Positions 36,995-48,758 of a stretch of DNA of 64,000 bases are shown here, in pieces. Each line of letters starts with the position of its first letter. Position 1 is the stretch's first letter. Where the stretch lies: the NCBI GenBank assembly GCA_944326155.1, contig CALVCV010000001.1:121184-185183 (forward strand), written 5' to 3'. Under the pieces are notes generated by a model that saw only the letters and a program-made list of their open reading frames with translations, was not told the origin of the DNA and ran no database searches. This DNA comes from an uncultured Bacilli bacterium. GTDB lineage: Bacteria > Bacillota_I > Bacilli_A > ML615J-28 > CAG-313. The translations under genes were made by a program, and so were the position numbers.

Positions 36995-38179
36995 ATGCAA
37001 AAATTATTAGTAAAATTATTTATTAAGGATTACCAAAAGATTCATGATCCTAAAGTTCGTAGCAAATATGGCACGCTATCAGGAATTACGGGAATTGTTA
37101 GTAATATAATCTTGTGTAGCATTAAAATTATTCTTGGTATTATTACCGCAAGTCTGTCCATTCTTGCAGACGGAATCAATAACTTAACAGATGCTGGTTC
37201 TTCTGTTATTACCCTTGTTGGTTTTAAATTATCAAGTATACCAGCTGATGAAGATCATCCTTTTGGTCATGAAAGAATTGAATATATTACTGGTCTTATC
37301 ATATCATTTTTAATCTTAATTATTGGTTTTACCCTAGGTAAAGAATCAGTTACAAAGTTAATCACCAAGGAAGTTACACAAACAATTTCATTTAGTATTA
37401 TTATTATAATGATTCTATCGATTTTAATTAAACTTTGGCAATCGATATTCTACCGTAAAATGGCTAAAGCTATTAATTCAGAAGCCCTATTTGCAAGTTC
37501 AAAAGATAGTTTAAATGACTGTATTTCAACATCAGCAGTTATTATTGGATTAATTATTTTTAAATTTACAAATTGGGAACCAATTGATGGTATTTTAGGA
37601 ATAATTGTTGCCATTTTTATTTTAATTTCAGGTATAAAAATGGTCTTTGAAACAGTCAATCCATTAATTGGCACAAAACCCACACAAGAAGAAATTAATA
37701 GTATTACAAAAAAAATTTTAAGTTACCAAGGTGTTATTGGCGTTCATGATTTAGTTATTCACCATTATGGTAGTTGCACTACTTTTGTAACAGCCCATGT
37801 TGAAGTACCAAGTGATGAAGATATTGTTATTAGTCATGATATCATTGACAATATTGAAAGAGAATTACGTACTCAATTGGGCATTGATTTAACGCTTCAC
37901 ATGGACCCCGTCGATATCAAAAACCCTAGAACCAATGAATTACGTCAAAAAGTTGTAAATATTATAGAAAGTATTAGTAAAGATTTATCTATTCATGATT
38001 TTAGAGTTGTATATGGTGATACACATACCAATTTAGTATTTGATGTAGCTATGCCAATTAAATTTAGTTGTAGTAAAAAAGAACTAAAAGATTTAATTAC
38101 TAGCGAAATTAAAAAATTAGATGAAACTTATTTTCCAGTAATTCAAATTGATCAACTATATAATCGTAATGAAGAATAA
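36995..38179 (+). CDS. cation diffusion facilitator (CDF) family metal efflux transporter
   Basis: 394 aa. 6 TM plus a C-terminal cytoplasmic domain. LADGINNLTDAGSS with HD/His sites. Confidence 0.85.
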   Translation: MQKLLVKLFIKDYQKIHDPKVRSKYGTLSGITGIVSNIILCSIKIILGIITASLSILADGINNLTDAGSSVITLVGFKLSSIPADEDHPFGHERIEYITGLIISFLILIIGFTLGKESVTKLITKEVTQTISFSIIIIMILSILIKLWQSIFYRKMAKAINSEALFASSKDSLNDCISTSAVIIGLIIFKFTNWEPIDGILGIIVAIFILISGIKMVFETVNPLIGTKPTQEEINSITKKILSYQGVIGVHDLVIHHYGSCTTFVTAHVEVPSDEDIVISHDIIDNIERELRTQLGIDLTLHMDPVDIKNPRTNELRQKVVNIIESISKDLSIHDFRVVYGDTHTNLVFDVAMPIKFSCSKKELKDLITSEIKKLDETYFPVIQIDQLYNRNEE

Positions 38180-38213: not shown

Positions 38214-38948
38214 TTATAAAAGTATTTCCGAAAAATTTACATATTCTAAATCTAATATATCTTGTATTACTATATTTGCATTCTTATTCCATGAAACCAT
38301 ATTAATAGTATAAACACTAAGTCCTGAATTGGCATATGAACTATTATAATCAACTAGATTAATCTTACCACCTCTAGTCCTTATGTAATCAATTAATTTT
38401 TTTAAATCAGATCTTGAAAATAGTTCAACATGAATTTCAAGTGTATTGGAATTCTTAGTAAAGATTTTTTCCAATCTTGGTAAGAAAACAAAGGCAACTA
38501 AAGCAAATATTGTACCAATAATACCAACTGTATAAAAACCGATACCAATTGATAAGCCAATACATGCTGAAACCCAAAGACCTGCTGCCGTCGTTAATCC
38601 TTTAATTTGACTTCTTGATGTTACTAAAATTGTACCTGCACCTAAAAAACCAATACCGCTTATAACTTGTGCACCAAGCCTACCAATATCTCCTTGACCA
38701 TATACCTCAAAAATATATTGATTTGTAAAAATGGCAATCATTGCACCAAGTGACACCAAAATATATGTTCTAAATCCTGCTGCATGTCTTCTTCTTGCTC
38801 TTTCCAAACCGATTAAACCAGCACAAATAAATGTTAAAATAAAACGAACTAATATAGACCAAATTGAAATATCGCCAATAAGATCTTCAAGTCCTAGCCA
38901 ATTTGTAATCGGATCAATATAATTTATATTACTCATTTCAAACATCAT
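38214..38948 (-). CDS. mgtC: MgtC/SapB family membrane protein
   Basis: 244 aa. N-terminal MgtC TM domain, C-terminal ACT-like domain. Confidence 0.75.
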   Translation of the reverse strand: MMFEMSNINYIDPITNWLGLEDLIGDISIWSILVRFILTFICAGLIGLERARRRHAAGFRTYILVSLGAMIAIFTNQYIFEVYGQGDIGRLGAQVISGIGFLGAGTILVTSRSQIKGLTTAAGLWVSACIGLSIGIGFYTVGIIGTIFALVAFVFLPRLEKIFTKNSNTLEIHVELFSRSDLKKLIDYIRTRGGKINLVDYNSSYANSGLSVYTINMVSWNKNANIVIQDILDLEYVNFSEILL

Positions 38949-42057: not shown

Positions 42058-42495
42058 CTATCCATTTAATTTTTGCTTAAAAGCTCTTGCATATACTCGA
42101 GTAATAATCATACGCTCATTGTTTATTAGTACAGCACTAATTCTTCCATTAACAAGAGTACTAACTTTTTCAATTTTATTGATATTTAAAATAATAGTTC
42201 TTGCAACTTGTATAAAAGATGTTCTAGCCAATATCTTAGTTAATTCTTGAAGTTTATAATTTACTTCATAGACATTTTTTTCTACATATGCAAAGACGCG
42301 ATTTTCCACAGCTTCAAAATAAAAAATATCGTCTAGGTTTAAAACATACGTTTCGCCATCCAATTTTCCATTAATCGTAATATAGCTTGTACGGATATAA
42401 TTACTAATTTTATGGATTTTATCATCTATTTTTTTACATTTAATGAAAATTTCTGTTTCTTCTAAATTTGAAACTTCATCAATTTGTAATTTCAT
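42058..42495 (-). CDS. LytTR-family DNA-binding protein (stand-alone, no receiver domain)
   Basis: 145 aa. LytTR-like pattern in KISNYIRTSYITINGK...FIQVARTIILNINKIEKV. Confidence 0.65.
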   Translation of the reverse strand: MKLQIDEVSNLEETEIFIKCKKIDDKIHKISNYIRTSYITINGKLDGETYVLNLDDIFYFEAVENRVFAYVEKNVYEVNYKLQELTKILARTSFIQVARTIILNINKIEKVSTLVNGRISAVLINNERMIITRVYARAFKQKLNG

Positions 42496-42512
42496 AAGTC
42501 ACCTCGCTGCTT

Positions 42513-43337
42513 CTATTTAAAACGGTTGCGGTATGTGCATTTCTTACACAATTCAAAATAGGGCTTCCGATTATTAAAGCCTAAAAGAGCTTCTTGACAA
42601 GTTTTACTAGCAAGTAAAGTAGGTAAATCATTAGTTAATAAATTACCAATTTTCGTTTTTCCCTGATAATCAAGGCAACACAAACAAAGCGTACCATCAT
42701 TTAAAATAGCAAACTGTTTTTTTCCACCATAACAGTTTGTTAAAGTGGTATTATAACTATGTTCTAGGGAAGGCCAAGTAAATTCGTCTGCTTTTGAAAT
42801 ATTAATATTAATACTACTTTTTACTATAGGTTGATAAATTTGTAATACTTTTTGTGTTAACAATAAATTAGTCAAATAATTTTTATTATTCCATAATCTT
42901 AAATTTATAGCAATCAAATGTTCTTTTTTTGATCTTTTTTCTAAAAATTCATTTAAATGCTTAAAATACAAATCTTGCTCAGCTTCATCAAAATTAATTA
43001 AACACTGGAGAGAAATATTTAATTTTTGTAAATATTGATATTTTAAGAGTTGATTTTCATATTTATATAACAACACTCCATTGGTAGTGATACCAAAAGG
43101 AATTTTATGTACTTCACAATAATCTAATATTTTGATAAAATTAGGATGCAAGGTAGGTTCGCCTAAAACATGAAAATAAAGAATTTTAATATACTCATGA
43201 ATTTTATCAATAAGTTGTATAACCATTTCAAATGGCATAAATTTATGTTTTTTAACATTAGATGATGGACAAAAAGGACATTTTAAATTACATGCTGTAG
43301 TAATTTCTAAGTAGAAATTATATTTTCTTTTGTTCAT
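42513..43337 (-). CDS. radical SAM enzyme with a C-terminal Cys-rich (SPASM/twitch-like) extension
   Basis: 274 aa. CNLKCPFCP is the CxxxCxxC motif. C-terminal Cys pattern: C-x15-C-x-CC...C...C-x2-C. Confidence 0.8.
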   Translation of the reverse strand: MNKRKYNFYLEITTACNLKCPFCPSSNVKKHKFMPFEMVIQLIDKIHEYIKILYFHVLGEPTLHPNFIKILDYCEVHKIPFGITTNGVLLYKYENQLLKYQYLQKLNISLQCLINFDEAEQDLYFKHLNEFLEKRSKKEHLIAINLRLWNNKNYLTNLLLTQKVLQIYQPIVKSSININISKADEFTWPSLEHSYNTTLTNCYGGKKQFAILNDGTLCLCCLDYQGKTKIGNLLTNDLPTLLASKTCQEALLGFNNRKPYFELCKKCTYRNRFK

Positions 43338-43894
43338 TTGTCAATTTCTTCAAATTCCGCATCAATAAAACTATTACCATTTGCTTGTTCCTCTTGCTTT
43401 TTAAAATGATTATTCGAAATAAATAGTAAAATAAATCCGTATGCTATAATCAAAATAGATATAATACGTAAAACCCACATACCTATATTTTCAATACCAC
43501 AAAAAATTAGCATTAAAGAAATAATGATTTTATATATTGCAATGCTAAATAAATCTTTTATTTTTTTAGTAAAAATTGCCATCAAAATTGTATAAAGCAA
43601 AAAACAAATACCTAAAATTAATGATACTAATCTCGATGAAAAAAACAATATAAATATACCAAAAATTATTTTAATAATACCATCATATAAATAGTTTTGA
43701 TGAAATGAAAAATTTATTTTCTTAATATTTATATGAATATATATAATGATACCACCAATAATGATTAAGCAAATTCCTAATATTTTTACAATTGCGTTGA
43801 TGATTGCGTCTCCAAAAGGCCATACAATGAGTGCAAAAATGGTACCTAAAATAATATAATACATACCAATCATAGATTTTTTATTCATAAACAT
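43334..43894 (-). CDS. polytopic membrane protein
   Basis: 186 aa, 5-6 TM. 4-nt overlap with the radical SAM gene. Confidence 0.5.
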   Translation of the reverse strand: MFMNKKSMIGMYYIILGTIFALIVWPFGDAIINAIVKILGICLIIIGGIIIYIHINIKKINFSFHQNYLYDGIIKIIFGIFILFFSSRLVSLILGICFLLYTILMAIFTKKIKDLFSIAIYKIIISLMLIFCGIENIGMWVLRIISILIIAYGFILLFISNNHFKKQEEQANGNSFIDAEFEEIDK

Positions 43895-45460: not shown

Positions 45461-45895
45461 CTAGTGGATTTGTTCACTAAAATTATTTTCATTTAAAATT
45501 ACTATTCCATTTTTATATAATAAATCAGCTGTAATTCCATTCCCACCTACTAAATTTGAAGAGAAAGTTCCATCATATATTTTGCCAAATCCACAAGAAG
45601 GACTATTGCTTTTTAAAATGGCAATTTCACATTGATTCTCATTGGCAATATCCAATGCACGAAGCGCACCTTTTATAAAATTTTTGGTAACATCAAGATT
45701 ATTTTTAGTAATAACCTTATTTTGTCTTACTTCGCTTGGTACTCTAGGAGTTTTTAATCCACCCAAAACTTCAGGACATATCGGTATGAGATGATAGTTT
45801 TTTTCTAAATTCTTAACACTAGGACATAGATTATTTTTACCATTATATTTACAATTAATACCTAATAAACAACTGCTCACTAAAATATTCATCAA
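45461..45895 (-). CDS. DUF523-family protein
   Basis: 144 aa. N-terminal ILVSSCLLGINCKYNGKNN matches the DUF523 signature. Confidence 0.65.
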   Translation of the reverse strand: MMNILVSSCLLGINCKYNGKNNLCPSVKNLEKNYHLIPICPEVLGGLKTPRVPSEVRQNKVITKNNLDVTKNFIKGALRALDIANENQCEIAILKSNSPSCGFGKIYDGTFSSNLVGGNGITADLLYKNGIVILNENNFSEQIH

Positions 45896-45902
45896 AATCT
45901 CC

Positions 45903-46568
45903 TTAATTATTATTTTTAACTATAGGTGAATAGTTTCCTAACATAGTATGATCTAAGTTATCTTTGGCAAGACAAAGTTGCATTTGATATTGTAAAATAT
46001 CTCTTTTATAGTCTTCCATTCCAAAATTATCATATAGATATTTTGCATAATCATAAGCTTCTTCAAACATCGAAATTCTACGATATAAGTCAACAATAAT
46101 TAATCTAATATTTTGATTATCTTCGTCCTTTAGTGATAATTCCAAAAAATGAATTGCTTTACTGCGCGTTTTTAAAGCAGTAGTTGTATCTTTGCTATCG
46201 TCAGCCATCCAACTTGCTCTTAGATAACTCATACCAGCTTTTTTAGCATCCCTTTTTTCTAATAATAAAGCAATTAACATAAATTTTTTTAATGCAAAAT
46301 TAATATTAGCATTGTTTAATATAAGTTGATAATGTTCATCATCAAGTTCACTCTTTTGAAAATCAATTAATATTTGACGAATATCATAATTGGTGTATCC
46401 ACATTTTGGACATTTTTCAACCATCAAATGCATGAAAGTTCTAGCTATTCCTGGAGGTCTTGTATCTAAATCACGCATGCCAAAAGTTTCATCATTATAT
46501 AATTTTTGATAATGATAGTTATACCCACAAACTGCACATTTCTTTTCAATATTTTTAATAGTATTCAT
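45903..46568 (-). CDS. zinc-ribbon + TPR-like protein (DUF2225-like)
   Basis: 221 aa. N-terminal CAVCG...CPKCG zinc ribbon, helical repeat C-terminus. Confidence 0.45.
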   Translation of the reverse strand: MNTIKNIEKKCAVCGYNYHYQKLYNDETFGMRDLDTRPPGIARTFMHLMVEKCPKCGYTNYDIRQILIDFQKSELDDEHYQLILNNANINFALKKFMLIALLLEKRDAKKAGMSYLRASWMADDSKDTTTALKTRSKAIHFLELSLKDEDNQNIRLIIVDLYRRISMFEEAYDYAKYLYDNFGMEDYKRDILQYQMQLCLAKDNLDHTMLGNYSPIVKNNN

Positions 46569-46575
46569 TTTTTTA

Positions 46576-47511
46576 CTATCTTAAATCCAAAATCGGTTTC
46601 AATAAAGGAGCAATTTCCGTAATTGAAATTGGATCTAAGATTCCTTCTTCTTCTTGATATTCTTGGGAATATTCAAATGACATCTTTGCAACAATATGAA
46701 CCCAAGATTTATTCTTGAGTTTTAAACCTAAGGTTTTTGTACATAAATGGCCATATAATTGTACATCATTTGCGCAACAAGTCATAGCATATCTTCCTGC
46801 AATAAAACTATTTTTTGGTAACTTTCTAGATATGGTAACCATTGCATTAAATTCAATAATGCGATTTTCATACCTTTTAGGATTTTCAAAAGTATCAATA
46901 TACCAACGACCATAATCTTCATCTTTGATTTGAATAATTTCAGCATTTAAATCATATGGAAGTGGTTCTTCAAAAGCTTGCTGTATAATTCCCTCACTAT
47001 TCATTATCATAAATTGTGCATTACTATTCATCAATTTTAGACTAGTTTGGTATGGAGCCAATTTTGAAGAATCATCACACCGATTGAAAACTATTAAATC
47101 AGAAAGTGCTATCATATCTTTAAACTTTTGTCTTAAATTATTGTAGTATATTTCAAATGTTGAAGCATTAATAAAAGTAATCGATTGAGCTATTTGATAA
47201 CCATCAGGGAAAAAAACTTTATTCATATTCCACATACAATTCATCTCAAAAATTACTCTATCAGGTAAATATCGAGCAGCCAATTCACTTAAATATTCAG
47301 GCGTTAAATCTTCTTGAGAATCAATTTTTACTAAACTAGTATTATATTTTCTAGCAAATTCTTCGGCTAATTCTATTTCACCATCTTCACATTGAATGAC
47401 AAGAGTTCGACCATTTTTAGAAAATCCATCTTTTTCGATTGCGTCAATAATAAAAGTTGTTTTACCAGAATCCAAAAAACCATTAATTATAAAAATTGGT
47501 ATTTCCATCAT
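46576..47511 (-). CDS. COG0523 (CobW/G3E) GTPase paralogue lacking the CxCC motif
   Basis: 311 aa. Walker A GFLDSGKTT and a CobW C-terminal domain. No CxCC metal-binding motif. Confidence 0.75.
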   Translation of the reverse strand: MMEIPIFIINGFLDSGKTTFIIDAIEKDGFSKNGRTLVIQCEDGEIELAEEFARKYNTSLVKIDSQEDLTPEYLSELAARYLPDRVIFEMNCMWNMNKVFFPDGYQIAQSITFINASTFEIYYNNLRQKFKDMIALSDLIVFNRCDDSSKLAPYQTSLKLMNSNAQFMIMNSEGIIQQAFEEPLPYDLNAEIIQIKDEDYGRWYIDTFENPKRYENRIIEFNAMVTISRKLPKNSFIAGRYAMTCCANDVQLYGHLCTKTLGLKLKNKSWVHIVAKMSFEYSQEYQEEEGILDPISITEIAPLLKPILDLR

Positions 47512-47521
47512 TAGTTTTTAC

Positions 47522-48670
47522 CTACTTTACTAAAATGATTTTTTCAAGATTTTCTTTATTAAGTTTTGAACCAATGACTACAAATCTACCAATAAAATCT
47601 TCCGTGCCTTCATTAATTTGATAATCTCCACATACATAATCAAAATAATACCATTTAACATTATCGCTAGCCTTAAGAATCCCTTTAGCACGTAAAACTA
47701 TACCACAGTTATTTTCATCTTTTAGTGCTTCTAGAATTTTAGTAAGTTCTTCTTTTGAATATGATTTTGCACTTTCAAAACCATAAGAAACAAATACTTC
47801 ATCGGCATCATGATGATGATGTTCACCTTCTTCATCATGATGATGAGAGCATCCTTCACCTTCTTCATCGTGATGATGATGACAGCATCCTTCACCTTCT
47901 TCATCATGATGATGATGACAGCATCCTTCACCTTCTTCATCATGATGATGATGACAGCATCCTTCACCTTCTTCATCGTGATGATGATGACAGCATCCTT
48001 CACCTTCTTCATCGTGATGATGATGACAGCAATGATGTTCATTTTCTAATTCTTGTTTCATTTCATCAGTAATTGAAGCATTCTTTTCTAAAATTTCAAG
48101 TAACTTGAATGCATCTACATTAGGTAAATTTGCTAAAACAATATTTGCATTCGGATTTTGTGATTTAATTAGATTATAAACTTCAATTATCTTATCATCA
48201 GCCAATTTTTCTACTTTACTAATAACAATTGTTCTTGCGTCCTCTACTTGATTATTAAAAAATTCACCAAAGTTCTTAATGTATATTTTACACTTTGAAC
48301 CATCTACAACAGTTGCAACAATATTCAAGACTATATCTAATTTTAATTTTTCAACAGCTTTGATAATATCTGAAAGTTTACCTACACCAGATGGCTCAAT
48401 GACTATTCTTTCAGGATGAAAAGTATCAATTACTTCTTTCATTGATTTTGAAAAATCACCAACTAAAGAGCAACAAATACATCCAGAATTAATTTCTCTA
48501 ATATCAATTCCTGATTCTTTTAAGAAACTGCCATCTATGCCAATTTCACCAAATTCATTTTCTATTAAAACAATTTTTTCATCATTAAATCTAGTTTTTA
48601 AAAGTTGTTTAATTAAAGTTGTTTTACCAGCTCCTAAAAAACCTGAAATAATATCAACTTTTATACTCAT
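47522..48670 (-). CDS. COG0523 (CobW/YciC-like) metallochaperone GTPase with a His/Cys-rich repeat insert
   Basis: 382 aa. Walker A GFLGAGKTT and metal-binding GCICCS. Insert HHCCHHHHDEEGEG(CCHHHHDEEGEG)x4...HHHHDADE lies between the GTPase and C-terminal domains. Confidence 0.85.
   Translation of the reverse strand: MSIKVDIISGFLGAGKTTLIKQLLKTRFNDEKIVLIENEFGEIGIDGSFLKESGIDIREINSGCICCSLVGDFSKSMKEVIDTFHPERIVIEPSGVGKLSDIIKAVEKLKLDIVLNIVATVVDGSKCKIYIKNFGEFFNNQVEDARTIVISKVEKLADDKIIEVYNLIKSQNPNANIVLANLPNVDAFKLLEILEKNASITDEMKQELENEHHCCHHHHDEEGEGCCHHHHDEEGEGCCHHHHDEEGEGCCHHHHDEEGEGCCHHHHDEEGEGCSHHHDEEGEHHHHDADEVFVSYGFESAKSYSKEELTKILEALKDENNCGIVLRAKGILKASDNVKWYYFDYVCGDYQINEGTEDFIGRFVVIGSKLNKENLEKIILVK
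47813..48028. repeat. 36-bp tandem repeat (about 5.5 copies) inside the COG0523 gene
   Basis: Unit gcatccttcaccttcttcatc[a/g]tgatgatgatgaca repeated head-to-tail. It encodes CCHHHHDEEGEG on the minus strand. It also generates spurious antisense ORFs (47731..48042, 47755..48072, 47810..48049). Confidence 0.9.
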
Positions 48671-48699
48671 ATTTTTTAATACTCCTTTTATACTTTACT

Positions 48700-48752
48700 T
48701 TACTTAACTTTACAAATTATACCATAAAATCAATATTGAATGTAATTGTTAC
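48700..48752 (-). promoter_or_regulatory. promoter of the COG0523 operon with an overlapping palindromic operator candidate
   Basis: Minus strand GTGTAAC-a-ATTACAT (rc of about 48734..48750) overlaps the -35 TTACAT. 18-nt spacer, then TGgTATAAT. The 7-1-7 inverted repeat resembles Fur-family (Zur/Fur/PerR) box architecture. Confidence 0.45.
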
Positions 48753-48758
48753 ACCAAA

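What the first reader, a model, noticed from the sequence alone, without database searches (positions are those of the whole stretch)
46576..48670. Tandem COG0523 metallochaperone GTPases: one with CxCC plus a His/Cys repeat, one lacking CxCC
Two adjacent G3E-family (CobW/YciC/ZigA-type) GTPases form an operon with a DUF2225-like zinc-ribbon/TPR protein and a DUF523 protein. The first has the canonical GCICCS metal site and a 70-aa insert of (CCHHHHDEEGEG)n. The second has a Walker A motif but no CxCC, suggesting a regulatory or non-metal-binding partner. COG0523 proteins with His-rich tracts are typically Zur-regulated zinc-starvation factors. A heterodimeric CxCC+/CxCC- pair would be unusual.
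Basis: partly seen in the sequence, partly recalled or inferred. Interest (0 to 1): 0.5.

Follow-up and report, generated by a model that had tools for sequence, protein, structure and literature searches.

The report
COG0523 metallochaperone with transporter-derived soluble partner
The two adjacent "GTPase" genes are real and always travel together in gut Firmicutes, but only the first is an ordinary metal-chaperone GTPase; the second combines the two soluble parts of a zinc-linked membrane transporter in one protein with its own cysteine metal site, which gives this poorly understood chaperone family a fixed, testable partner.

Summary

- **P1** (47522-48670, minus strand) is an orthodox COG0523 GTPase. 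It has GCICCS, a CobW_C domain with the RxKG arginine finger, and a 76-aa (CCHHHHDEEGEG)n linker encoded by a 36-bp x 5.9 tandem repeat.
- **P2** (46576-47511, minus strand) has a Walker A motif, but the whole CxCC loop is deleted.
P2's C-terminal half is not CobW_C. It is a DUF1980_C domain with an OB fold and an invariant Cys-Cys-x-x-Asp.

P1 sits directly upstream of P2 in 77 of 77 informative loci. P2 relatives were found in at least 571 species genomes. No other neighbour is conserved.

In related clostridial operons, often next to a Fur-family gene (probably zur) and/or znuABC, the order is:

1. a P1-like COG0523;
2. the same CxCC-less G3E domain fused to an ArsP_1/ScfA-type permease;
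3. a membrane DUF1980/ScfB protein.

P2 equals the soluble domains of genes 2 and 3 without any membrane part.

Best reading: a co-expressed cytosolic metal (probably zinc) relay and buffer. In it, P2 docks P1 and exchanges metal between its CC-D loop and P1's CICC. This is inferred, not shown. I score it as a new variant of a known kind, interest about 0.6.

The parts
48716..48753 (-). Likely promoter of the P1-P2 operon in the 88-nt spacer after the MscS gene. It has an extended -10 (TGgTATAAT, 48716-48724) and a palindrome TGTAACAATTACA (48741-48753) over the -35 region.
   Evidence: Sequence read. The palindrome is not conserved in relatives, so I do not claim an operator. The RBS GGAG is at 48682-48685.
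47522..48670 (-). P1: an orthodox COG0523 G3E GTPase metallochaperone (382 aa). It has Walker A, ENEFGE, GCICCS, IEPSGVG, a His/Cys-rich linker, and a CobW_C domain with RAKG.
   Evidence: Pfam cobW 6e-36 and CobW_C 1e-7. Best solved relative is YjiA, 2e-16. Motif coordinates. 35% identical over its full length to the COG0523 of Zur/Znu-linked operons, E 1e-79 to 1e-87.
48467..48484 (-). GCICCS, the canonical high-affinity metal site of P1 (aa 63-68).
   Evidence: CICC is present in 73/73 P1 orthologues.
47810..48037 (-). His/Cys/acid low-complexity linker of P1 (aa 212-287): five exact CCHHHHDEEGEG units plus degenerate ends. Probably a multi-ion metal reservoir.
   Evidence: The 36-bp x 5.9 tandem repeat with 96% matches at 47822-48031. 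Every orthologue has such a tract, but the repeat units evolved independently; 13-72 His in the 17 sampled linkers.
47681..47692 (-). RAKG, the RxKG arginine-finger motif of the CobW_C domain of P1.
   Evidence: RxKG is present in 72/73 orthologues. Its function is described in PMC13001444.
46576..47511 (-). P2: a soluble two-domain protein (311 aa) made of a CxCC-deleted G3E P-loop domain and a DUF1980_C OB-fold domain.
46978..47511 (-). P2 N-terminal G3E-like domain (aa 1-178): Walker A GFLDSGKT, CEDGEIE in place of ENEFGE, FEMNCMW in place of IEPSGVG, NRCD in place of NKxD, and the CxCC loop deleted.
   Evidence: Its closest relatives are the N-terminal domains of G3E-ArsP_1 permease fusions (E 1e-14 to 1e-26, against 1e-7 to 1e-12 for COG0523 A proteins).
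46579..46971 (-). P2 C-terminal DUF1980_C domain (aa 181-311), an OB-fold beta-barrel.
   Evidence: Homologous to the soluble domain of membrane DUF1980/ScfB-type proteins, E 1e-10 to 1e-24.
46765..46797 (-). GRYAMTCCAND: the invariant G-R...C-C-x-x-D loop between two beta-strands, the candidate metal site of P2.
   Evidence: G239, R240, C245, C246 and D249 are at least 95% conserved in 79 sequences. The loop has locally lower pLDDT (78 for residues 241-250).
45903..46568 (-). DUF2225-like zinc-ribbon protein, co-oriented 7 nt after P2. A lineage-specific passenger of the operon.
   Evidence: Pfam DUF2225 8.8e-7. Present after P2 only in L001-L003.
45461..45895 (-). DUF523 / 2-thiouracil desulfurase family protein, the last gene of the tight cluster. 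Lineage-specific.
   Evidence: PF04463 5e-44. Present only in L001-L004. A 496-nt gap with promoter-like sites follows.

Best explanation
P1 and P2 are a conserved, co-transcribed two-protein module. I propose that it handles a thiophilic divalent metal, most likely Zn(II), in the cytosol, driven by nucleotide.

**P1** is an orthodox COG0523 GTPase chaperone with a CICC transfer site and an RxKG self-activating C-terminal domain. Its linker has expanded into a His/Cys/acid-rich reservoir.

**P2** is not a COG0523. It joins two pieces:
- (i) a G3E P-loop domain whose CxCC loop has been deleted. The same domain forms the cytoplasmic N-terminus of ArsP_1/ScfA-type permeases in operons next to a Fur-family gene and/or znuABC.
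- (ii) the DUF1980_C OB-fold domain of the ScfB/YcgQ-type partner of those permeases, with an invariant Cys-Cys-x-x-Asp loop.

**Proposed mechanism (inferred):**
- P2's G3E domain is a docking module. It pairs with P1's G-domain as a pseudo-homodimer, the way HypB and UreG dimerise.
- This brings P2's CC-D loop next to P1's CICC, so metal can pass between them.
- Nucleotide binding or hydrolysis gates the exchange.
- The His-rich tract buffers several further ions.

**Shown here:** domain identities, motif conservation, obligate gene pairing, and homology to the Zur/Znu-linked membrane system.

**Inferred only:** the metal's identity, physical contact between P1 and P2, and the direction of transfer.
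For: 1. **Obligate pairing.** A P1-type gene lies upstream on the same strand in 77/77 loci with enough upstream DNA. These span Bacilli/Mollicutes-like MAGs, Erysipelotrichaceae, Christensenellaceae and Lachnospiraceae. The median gap is 12 nt. No other gene family is conserved around the pair.
2. **Invariant features.**
   - P1: CICC 73/73, RxKG 72/73, at least 17 His per 60 aa in 73/73.
   - P2: Walker A 77/78 (the one miss is an over-extended ORF call), no CxCC 78/78, CC-x-x-D 78/78.
3. **P2's C-domain motif.** CC-x-x-D is present in 148/150 top representatives of DUF1980_C, out of 775 hits in 1.8 billion proteins.
4. **Fold.** A confident model shows a G3E fold plus an OB fold.
5. **Membrane-type relatives.** All seven loci examined encode, in order, a COG0523, a G3E(no CxCC)-ArsP_1 permease with a CDC motif, and a DUF1980 protein with CCAAD.
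   - A FUR-family gene lies within 6 kb in 5/7.
   - ZnuA/ABC-3 genes lie within 6 kb in 3/7.
   - One locus reads znuA-znuC-znuB-fur-A-B-C on one strand.
6. **Shared derived characters.** P2-N and the permease N-domain share the same 7-aa deletion and the CExG and IExNGxW motifs. P2-C aligns with DUF1980 C-domains. P1 and A G-domains are 56% identical.
7. **Literature.** CxCC is the Zn site of COG0523, and the RxKG C-terminal domain is its built-in GAP (PMC11672702; PMC13001444).
Against: - No Zur/Fur gene, znu gene, ArsP_1 permease or Zur-like palindrome lies within 6 kb of the soluble pair in 80 loci or anywhere in the 64-kb window. The zinc assignment therefore rests on homology to the membrane system alone.
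- His-rich tracts are equally typical of nickel chaperones.
- P2's G4 motif is degenerate (NRCD, FINC, FTKL) and its G3 glycine is not conserved. P2 may bind but not hydrolyse nucleotide, or may not be GTP-specific.
- The positive-inside rule places DUF1980_C outside the cell in the membrane-type proteins. That sits badly with a simple picture of P2 as the transporter's cytoplasmic cap.
- No direct evidence of P1-P2 contact could be obtained.
Confidence: 0.45

Rival explanations
1. P2 is a metal-free regulatory or pseudo-GTPase subunit. It modulates P1's GTPase cycle, for example as a heterodimeric co-GTPase, without binding metal itself.
For: - The CxCC loop is deleted and the G3/G4 motifs are degenerate.
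- The tight pairing is equally compatible with a regulator.
Against: - CC-x-x-D, plus G-R upstream of it, is invariant in the C-domain across 79 sequences. It is also present in the homologous domain of membrane DUF1980 proteins, which have no GTPase to regulate.
- A vicinal Cys pair plus Asp on an exposed hairpin loop is a typical soft-metal site.
Confidence: 0.15
2. The pair is still a transporter accessory. P2 acts at the membrane as a peripheral subunit of a ScfA/ArsP_1-type (or other) permease encoded elsewhere in the genome, and P1 collects the imported metal there.
For: Both P2 domains come from a permease system in which they are covalently tied to membrane parts.
Against: - No ArsP_1 gene lies within 6 kb in 80 loci or in the 64-kb window.
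- P2 has no hydrophobic segment and models as a compact globular protein.
- The taxa seen with the soluble type and those seen with the membrane type did not overlap in the samples examined.
Confidence: 0.15
3. The module handles nickel or cobalt rather than zinc. It would be a HypB/UreE-like storage and delivery system for Ni enzymes, or a CobW-like Co chaperone.
For: - His-rich tracts are hallmarks of Ni chaperones (established knowledge of HypB, UreE, Hpn).
- The best NCBIfam hits are CobW-related models, all below cutoff.
- No Zur box was found.
- One membrane-type locus lies beside Nramp and NicO-like genes.
Against: - Five of seven membrane-type operons are next to a Fur-family gene and three of seven next to ZnuA/ABC-3 genes.
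- No hydrogenase, urease, CODH or cobalamin gene is linked in 80 loci, and no B12 riboswitch was found in the 12 related loci scanned.
Confidence: 0.2
4. P2's OB fold binds nucleic acid, so P2 is a nucleic-acid-dependent NTPase unrelated to metals.
Against: - Sequence identity to those matches is 5-16%, so the similarity is generic to the OB fold.
- The conserved residues are Cys-Cys-Asp.
- The same domain occurs tethered to membrane anchors beside a permease.
Confidence: 0.03

Closest known systems
COG0523 GTPase metallochaperones (ZigA, ZagA/YciC, YjiA, YeiR, CobW, MigC, ZNG1)
   Different: - P1 reaches none of the curated equivalog cutoffs (ZigA 73.7/600, YjiA-type 80.7/361, CobW 87.2/332).
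- P1 lacks the PETEEY motif of SSN cluster 1 (sequence inspection, against PMC13001444).
- P2 lacks CxCC, CobW_C and RxKG.
- No described COG0523 has an obligate, adjacent G3E-like partner of this kind.
ScfA/ScfB = SMU.746/SMU.747 = YcgR/YcgQ (ArsP_1/COG0701 permease plus DUF1980/TIGR03943 'putative permease subunit')
   Same: P2's C-terminal domain is a DUF1980_C domain with the family's CC-x-x-D motif. In clostridial relatives this permease pair sits in one operon with a P1-like COG0523.
   Different: - P2 has no transmembrane segments and no adjacent permease.
- It scores below the TIGR03943 cutoff (63.4 against 88.8).
- The substrate of ScfAB-type permeases is unknown (PMC5584981).
G3E(no CxCC)-ArsP_1 permease fusions (annotated only as 'permease'; for example in Ruminiclostridium cellulolyticum, Clostridium estertheticum, Tissierella)
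   Same: Their N-terminal domain shares P2's deletion of the CxCC loop and the CExG and IExNGxW motifs. It is always preceded by a CICC/RxKG COG0523.
   Different: There the domain is fused to a multi-pass permease with a CDC motif. In P2 it is fused to the OB domain instead.
HypB/HypA, UreG/UreE and Cu-chaperone/P-type ATPase metal-binding-domain pairs (mechanistic analogues)
   Same: - A G3E NTPase works with a second metal-binding protein.
- G3E domains dimerise with the metal site at the interface.
- A chaperone docks on a homologous domain of its partner.
   Different: The accessory domains are not homologous. Here the second subunit is itself a degenerate G3E domain carrying an OB-fold metal site.

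Membership tests
COG0523 (for P1) | P-loop G1 motif GxxGxGKT/S | tested here: met
   GFLGAGKT at aa 10-17; cobW Pfam 6e-36.
COG0523 (for P1) | CxCC metal motif between G2 and G3 (Haas 2009, PMC2770081) | tested here: met
   GCICCS at aa 63-68; present in 73/73 orthologues.
COG0523 (for P1) | CobW_C C-terminal domain with invariant RxKG (PMC13001444) | tested here: met
   CobW_C 1e-7; RAKG at aa 327-330; present in 72/73 orthologues.
COG0523 (for P1) | Membership of a named, characterised subfamily (ZigA, YjiA-type, CobW) by curated cutoff | tested here: not met
   Scores of 73.7-87.5 bits against cutoffs of 180-600.
COG0523 (for P1) | Zur regulation (typical of the zinc subfamilies, not defining) | tested here: inconclusive
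   No Fur-family gene or Zur-like palindrome in the window or in 80 loci. The Zur motif of this lineage is unknown.
COG0523 (for P2) | P-loop G1 motif | tested here: met
   GFLDSGKT at aa 11-18; G16 and K17 invariant.
COG0523 (for P2) | CxCC motif | tested here: not met
   A 7-residue deletion at the YjiA GCICCS position; absent in 78/78 homologues.
COG0523 (for P2) | CobW_C domain with RxKG | tested here: not met
   No CobW_C hit. No RxKG in 61/78 homologues, and none at a conserved position.
G3E P-loop NTPase fold (for the P2 N-domain) | Structural similarity to YjiA, HypB and UreG | tested here: met
G3E P-loop NTPase fold (for the P2 N-domain) | GTP hydrolysis and guanine specificity (NKxD) | not testable with these tools
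   G4 is NRCD here but FINC or FTKL in other members, and the G3 glycine is not conserved. An enzyme assay is needed.
DUF1980 / TIGR03943 (ScfB, YcgQ) (for P2) | DUF1980_C domain with CC-x-x-D | tested here: met
   PF21537 3e-19; CCAND at aa 245-249; aligned with C-type proteins.
DUF1980 / TIGR03943 (ScfB, YcgQ) (for P2) | N-terminal transmembrane segments (PF09323) and the curated TIGR03943 cutoff | tested here: not met
   No PF09323 hit and no hydrophobic segment. TIGR03943 scores 63.4 bits against a cutoff of 88.8.
DUF1980 / TIGR03943 (ScfB, YcgQ) (for P2) | Adjacent ArsP_1/COG0701 permease gene | tested here: not met
   None in the window or within 6 kb in 80 loci.

The most novel reading that the evidence does not exclude
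The P1-P2 pair is a transporter-less descendant of a previously unrecognised zinc-uptake machine. In that machine, a ScfA/ArsP_1 permease carries its own degenerate G3E domain as a landing pad for a COG0523 chaperone, and the ScfB/DUF1980 OB domain holds the metal on a Cys-Cys-Asp loop.

If true, two things follow:
- ScfAB/YcgRQ/SMU.746-747, which are fitness and virulence factors of unknown substrate, would be thiophilic-metal (Zn) permeases.
- P2 would be the first defined obligate protein partner of a bacterial COG0523. It would hand metal to or from CICC within a GTP-gated G3E pseudo-dimer, with P1's His/Cys tract acting as a cytosolic zinc buffer in gut anaerobes.
Probability: 0.3. Interest if true: 0.8.

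Novelty: new variant of a known kind. Interest (0 to 1): 0.6.

Why it matters
What bacterial COG0523 chaperones actually deliver metal to, or receive it from, is a long-standing open question. Few clients are known.

- **A fixed partner.** This COG0523 subfamily has an invariant, adjacent partner in hundreds of gut and rumen Firmicutes. The partner's domains come from a permease system tied to a Fur-family regulator (probably Zur) and znuABC.
- **A concrete system to reconstitute.** It consists of two soluble proteins with clear point mutants: CICC, RxKG, K17 and C245/C246/D249.
- **A candidate function for unexplained permeases.** The link offers a metal transport role for ScfAB/SMU.746-747/YcgRQ permeases, whose substrate is unknown although they matter for streptococcal fitness.
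- **A possible docking principle.** A chaperone G-domain would pair with a degenerate copy of itself on its partner.

Tried and rejected
- **Cryptic CxCC in P2:** rejected. The loop is deleted. The only vicinal Cys pair is in the OB domain.
- **Riboswitch or other known RNA upstream:** none in the window or in 12 related loci. The structured element upstream of some Lachnospiraceae P1 genes is RNase P RNA.
- **Zur box:** I took a TGCAAA...TTTGCA palindrome from two znuA-znuC spacers of membrane-type loci. It is absent upstream of P1 in the window and in all 80 soluble-type loci. The window's own palindrome TGTAACAATTACA is not conserved in relatives.
- **Conserved neighbours beyond P1-P2:** none. 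DUF2225, DUF523 and the 242-aa TPR-like gene occur only in the closest relatives.
- **Literature:** searches for DUF1980, TIGR03943, COG3689, PF21537, PF03773, UPF0718 and YraQ+Zur found no description of the fusion or of the three-gene operon.
- **Fold search against afdb50:** the library was not available.
- **P1:P2 complex prediction:** not attempted.
- **Midpoint-rooted NJ tree:** it did not recover P2 plus permease N-domains as a clade, because the P2 branch is long. The relationship rests on bit scores and the shared deletion.
Full report
**1. The observation**

The region holds two co-oriented minus-strand ORFs, P1 (47522-48670, 382 aa) and P2 (46576-47511, 311 aa), separated by 10 nt.

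P1 matches Pfam cobW (6e-36) and CobW_C (1e-7). Its features are:
- GFLGAGKT at aa 10-17;
- ENEFGE at aa 37-42;
- GCICCS at aa 63-68;
- IEPSGVG at aa 91-97;
- RAKG at aa 327-330.

Residues 212-287 of P1 are five exact CCHHHHDEEGEG units plus degenerate ends. They are encoded by a 36-bp tandem repeat of 5.9 copies with 96% matches, at 47822-48031.

P2 has GFLDSGKT at aa 11-18 and no CxCC. DUF2225 (8.8e-7) and DUF523/2-thiouracil-desulfurase (5e-44) genes follow after 7-nt gaps.

**2.

Only aa 5-167 of P2 resemble cobW, and weakly (3.5e-10). Residues 181-300 are a DUF1980_C domain (PF21537, 3e-19). They also match TIGR03943 'putative permease subunit' at 1.9e-17, below its cutoff.

A profile of the P2 family aligned to E. 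coli YjiA shows a 7-residue deletion exactly at YjiA's GCICCS. No cryptic CxCC exists.

The C-domain instead carries G-R-x-x-M-T-C-C-x-x-D. Across 79 sequences down to 38% identity, G239, R240, C245, C246 and D249 are at least 95% conserved. So are the P-loop G16/K17, E42/G44 and E89/N91/W94.

The G4 motif is degenerate (NRCD, FINC, FTKL) and the G3 glycine is variable.

**3. Structure**

An AlphaFold2 model of P2 from 76 sequences is confident, with pLDDT 89.9 and pTM 0.78. The only softer loops are residues 41-50 (the switch-I equivalent) and 241-250 (the CC-x-x-D hairpin).

- C-domain: OB folds, namely MCM N-terminal domain (8.9), Ten1 (8.2) and RPA14 (8.1).

P2 is therefore a G3E P-loop domain plus an OB barrel.

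**4. The pair is a conserved module**

- The P2 architecture is a family of at least 665 proteins of about 310 aa.
- Nearly all record titles are gut or rumen Firmicutes: Mollicutes/Bacilli-like MAGs, Erysipelotrichaceae, Christensenellaceae, and Lachnospiraceae including Butyrivibrio and Roseburia.
- In the 80 loci fetched, a P1-type gene lies upstream on the same strand in all 77 that have enough upstream DNA. Seventy-five are adjacent; two lie 1.5-2 kb away.
- The median gap is 12 nt, and 54 of 76 gaps are 25 nt or less.
- All 73 full-length P1 orthologues have CICC, and all have at least 17 His in some 60-aa window. Seventy-two have RxKG.
- The His-rich tracts are built from unrelated repeat units such as HEHCCHSHEEG, HDHDCGCHHDHDH and HDHDEDEHEHEHHHH. 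Composition is under selection, not sequence.
- Clustering all neighbouring ORFs found no other conserved gene. DUF2225, DUF523 and the 242-aa TPR-like gene accompany the pair only in L001-L004.

**5. Where P2 comes from**

A phmmer search with the P2 C-domain against 1.8 billion representatives gave 775 hits, with CC-x-x-D in 148 of the top 150. A few hits are membrane-anchored, including a classical 3-TM DUF1980 protein.

The locus of that protein (L081) reads: FUR-family gene (divergent), then A, B and C.
- **A** is a COG0523 with CICC and RAKG.
- **B** is a 528-aa protein whose N-terminal 190 aa are a CxCC-less G3E domain fused to an ArsP_1/COG0701 permease with a CDC motif.
- **C** is a DUF1980 protein with 3 TM segments, a Ser/Thr/Gly-rich linker, and an OB domain with CCAAD.

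The B architecture is itself a family of at least 522 proteins, annotated only as 'permease'.

Six further B loci all show A-B-C, once with a YibE_F gene inserted. They come from Ruminiclostridium cellulolyticum, Clostridium estertheticum, Tissierella praeacuta, Caproicibacter fermentans, Marasmitruncus massiliensis and a Desulfocapsaceae MAG. Among the seven loci in total:
- a FUR-family gene lies within 6 kb in 5/7;
- ZnuA/ABC-3 genes lie within 6 kb in 3/7;
- Tissierella reads znuA-znuC-znuB-fur-A-B-C on one strand.

The similarities to the window proteins are:

| Window protein | Best relative | E-value | Compare |
|---|---|---|---|
| P1 | A | 1e-79 to 1e-87 (G-domains 56% identical) | |
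| P2 N-domain | B N-domain | 1e-14 to 1e-26 | A: 1e-7 to 1e-12 |
| P2 C-domain | C | 1e-10 to 1e-24 | |

The alignment shows that B and P2 share the same deletion of the GCICCSL loop. They also share CExG in place of ENEFGE and IExNGxW in place of IEPSGVG.

P2 is thus the N-domain of B joined to the C-domain of C, with every membrane segment removed.

The membrane-type A proteins mostly lack a His tract: 6 of 7 have at most 5 His per 60 aa.

**6. What is not there**

The window and the 80 soluble-type loci contain no Fur-family gene, ZnuA, ZnuB or ArsP_1 gene near the pair. There is no Rfam element in the window or in the 12 related loci scanned.

A Zur-like palindrome taken from the membrane-type znu spacers is absent upstream of P1.

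In the window, the P1 promoter region has an extended -10 (TGgTATAAT, 48716-48724) and a palindrome over the -35 (48741-48753). The palindrome is not conserved in relatives.

**7. Mechanism**

From the literature:
- CxCC is the high-affinity Zn site of COG0523 and coincides with the Ni site of HypB.
- The CobW_C RxKG motif acts as an intramolecular arginine finger.
- Clients of bacterial COG0523 proteins are largely unknown (PMC11672702; PMC13001444).
- Haas et al. define COG0523 by CxCC plus the P-loop (PMC2770081).

P1 meets all of these criteria. P2 fails two of them, so it is G3E-like but not a COG0523.

My best reading is that P2 is P1's dedicated partner:
- Its degenerate G-domain docks P1's G-domain. 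G3E proteins such as HypB and UreG work as dimers with the metal at the interface (established knowledge).
- Its CC-D loop exchanges metal with CICC.
- P1's His/Cys tract buffers additional ions.

The zinc assignment is by homology to the Zur/Znu-linked A-B-C operons. Contact between the proteins and the direction of transfer are inferred.

**8. Open problems**

The positive-inside rule places the OB domain of C proteins outside the cell in 7/7 cases. Yet P2 fuses that domain compactly to a necessarily cytoplasmic NTPase domain. Two readings are possible:
- The topology call is wrong. The exclusion of cysteines from exported proteins of Firmicutes, which is general knowledge, argues that an invariant CC pair is cytoplasmic.
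- The domain was redeployed to a new compartment.

Nickel or cobalt cannot be excluded. Whether P2 hydrolyses GTP is unknown.

**9. Comparison and novelty**

The closest known systems are:
- the COG0523 chaperones, of which P1 is a member of an unnamed subfamily;
- the ScfAB/SMU.746-747/YcgRQ permease pair, whose substrate is unknown (PMC5584981).

I found no description of the G3E-DUF1980_C fusion, of the G3E-permease fusion, or of their obligate pairing with a COG0523.

I rate this a new variant of a known kind. It is a real, widespread and uncharacterised two-gene module.

Noticed in passing
L045, L050, L051, L053, L059, L061, L065, L066, L073 (about 60-90 nt upstream of the P1 start; for example L045:4617-4641): Butyrivibrio-type loci share a conserved element of about 25 nt, TTGTTGTAGT(A/G)nnT(A/G)TAGCACAG, straddling the predicted transcription start of the P1-P2 operon. 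It looks like an operator for an unidentified regulator.
   Followed up: partly
L009:4758-4784 and L078:1974-2000: CIRCE-type (HrcA operator) inverted repeats TTAGCACT-N9-AGTGCTAA lie immediately upstream of P1 in 2 of 73 loci. In L009 the repeat overlaps the -35. This hints at stress regulation of the pair in some lineages.
   Followed up: partly
L081-L087 (for example L084:2038-8420): A three-gene operon recurs beside Fur-family and/or znuABC genes: a COG0523, a CxCC-less G3E domain fused to an ArsP_1 permease (CDC motif), and a DUF1980 membrane protein. The permease fusion alone has at least 522 members, annotated only as 'permease'.
   Followed up: yes
L085:8384-9619 and L086:4737-6017: A YibE_F-family membrane protein is inserted between the COG0523 and the permease fusion in L086, and lies next to DUF1980 in L085. 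It may be a further component of the membrane-type system.
   Followed up: no
window 36995-38179 (+) and 38214-38948 (-): A cation-diffusion-facilitator efflux gene (Cation_efflux 2e-41, ZT_dimer 2e-19) and an MgtC-family gene lie about 9 kb from the pair. No link to P1-P2 is shown.
   Followed up: no
window 42058-43894 (-): A radical SAM/SPASM protein (42513-43337) is flanked by a LytTR-domain protein (42058-42495) and small hydrophobic ORFs. This may be a peptide-modification cassette.
   Followed up: no
L046:4344-4699, L047:4380-4742, L070:1733-2091, L074:3535-3899, L076:1-177: RNase P RNA lies upstream of P1 in several Lachnospiraceae loci, directly adjacent in L046, L047 and L076. It explains the structured-looking sequence there and is not a riboswitch.
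   Followed up: yes
L053 and L067: In two loci the P1 and P2 genes are separated by 1.5-2 kb instead of a few nucleotides, presumably by an insertion. The content was not examined.
   Followed up: no
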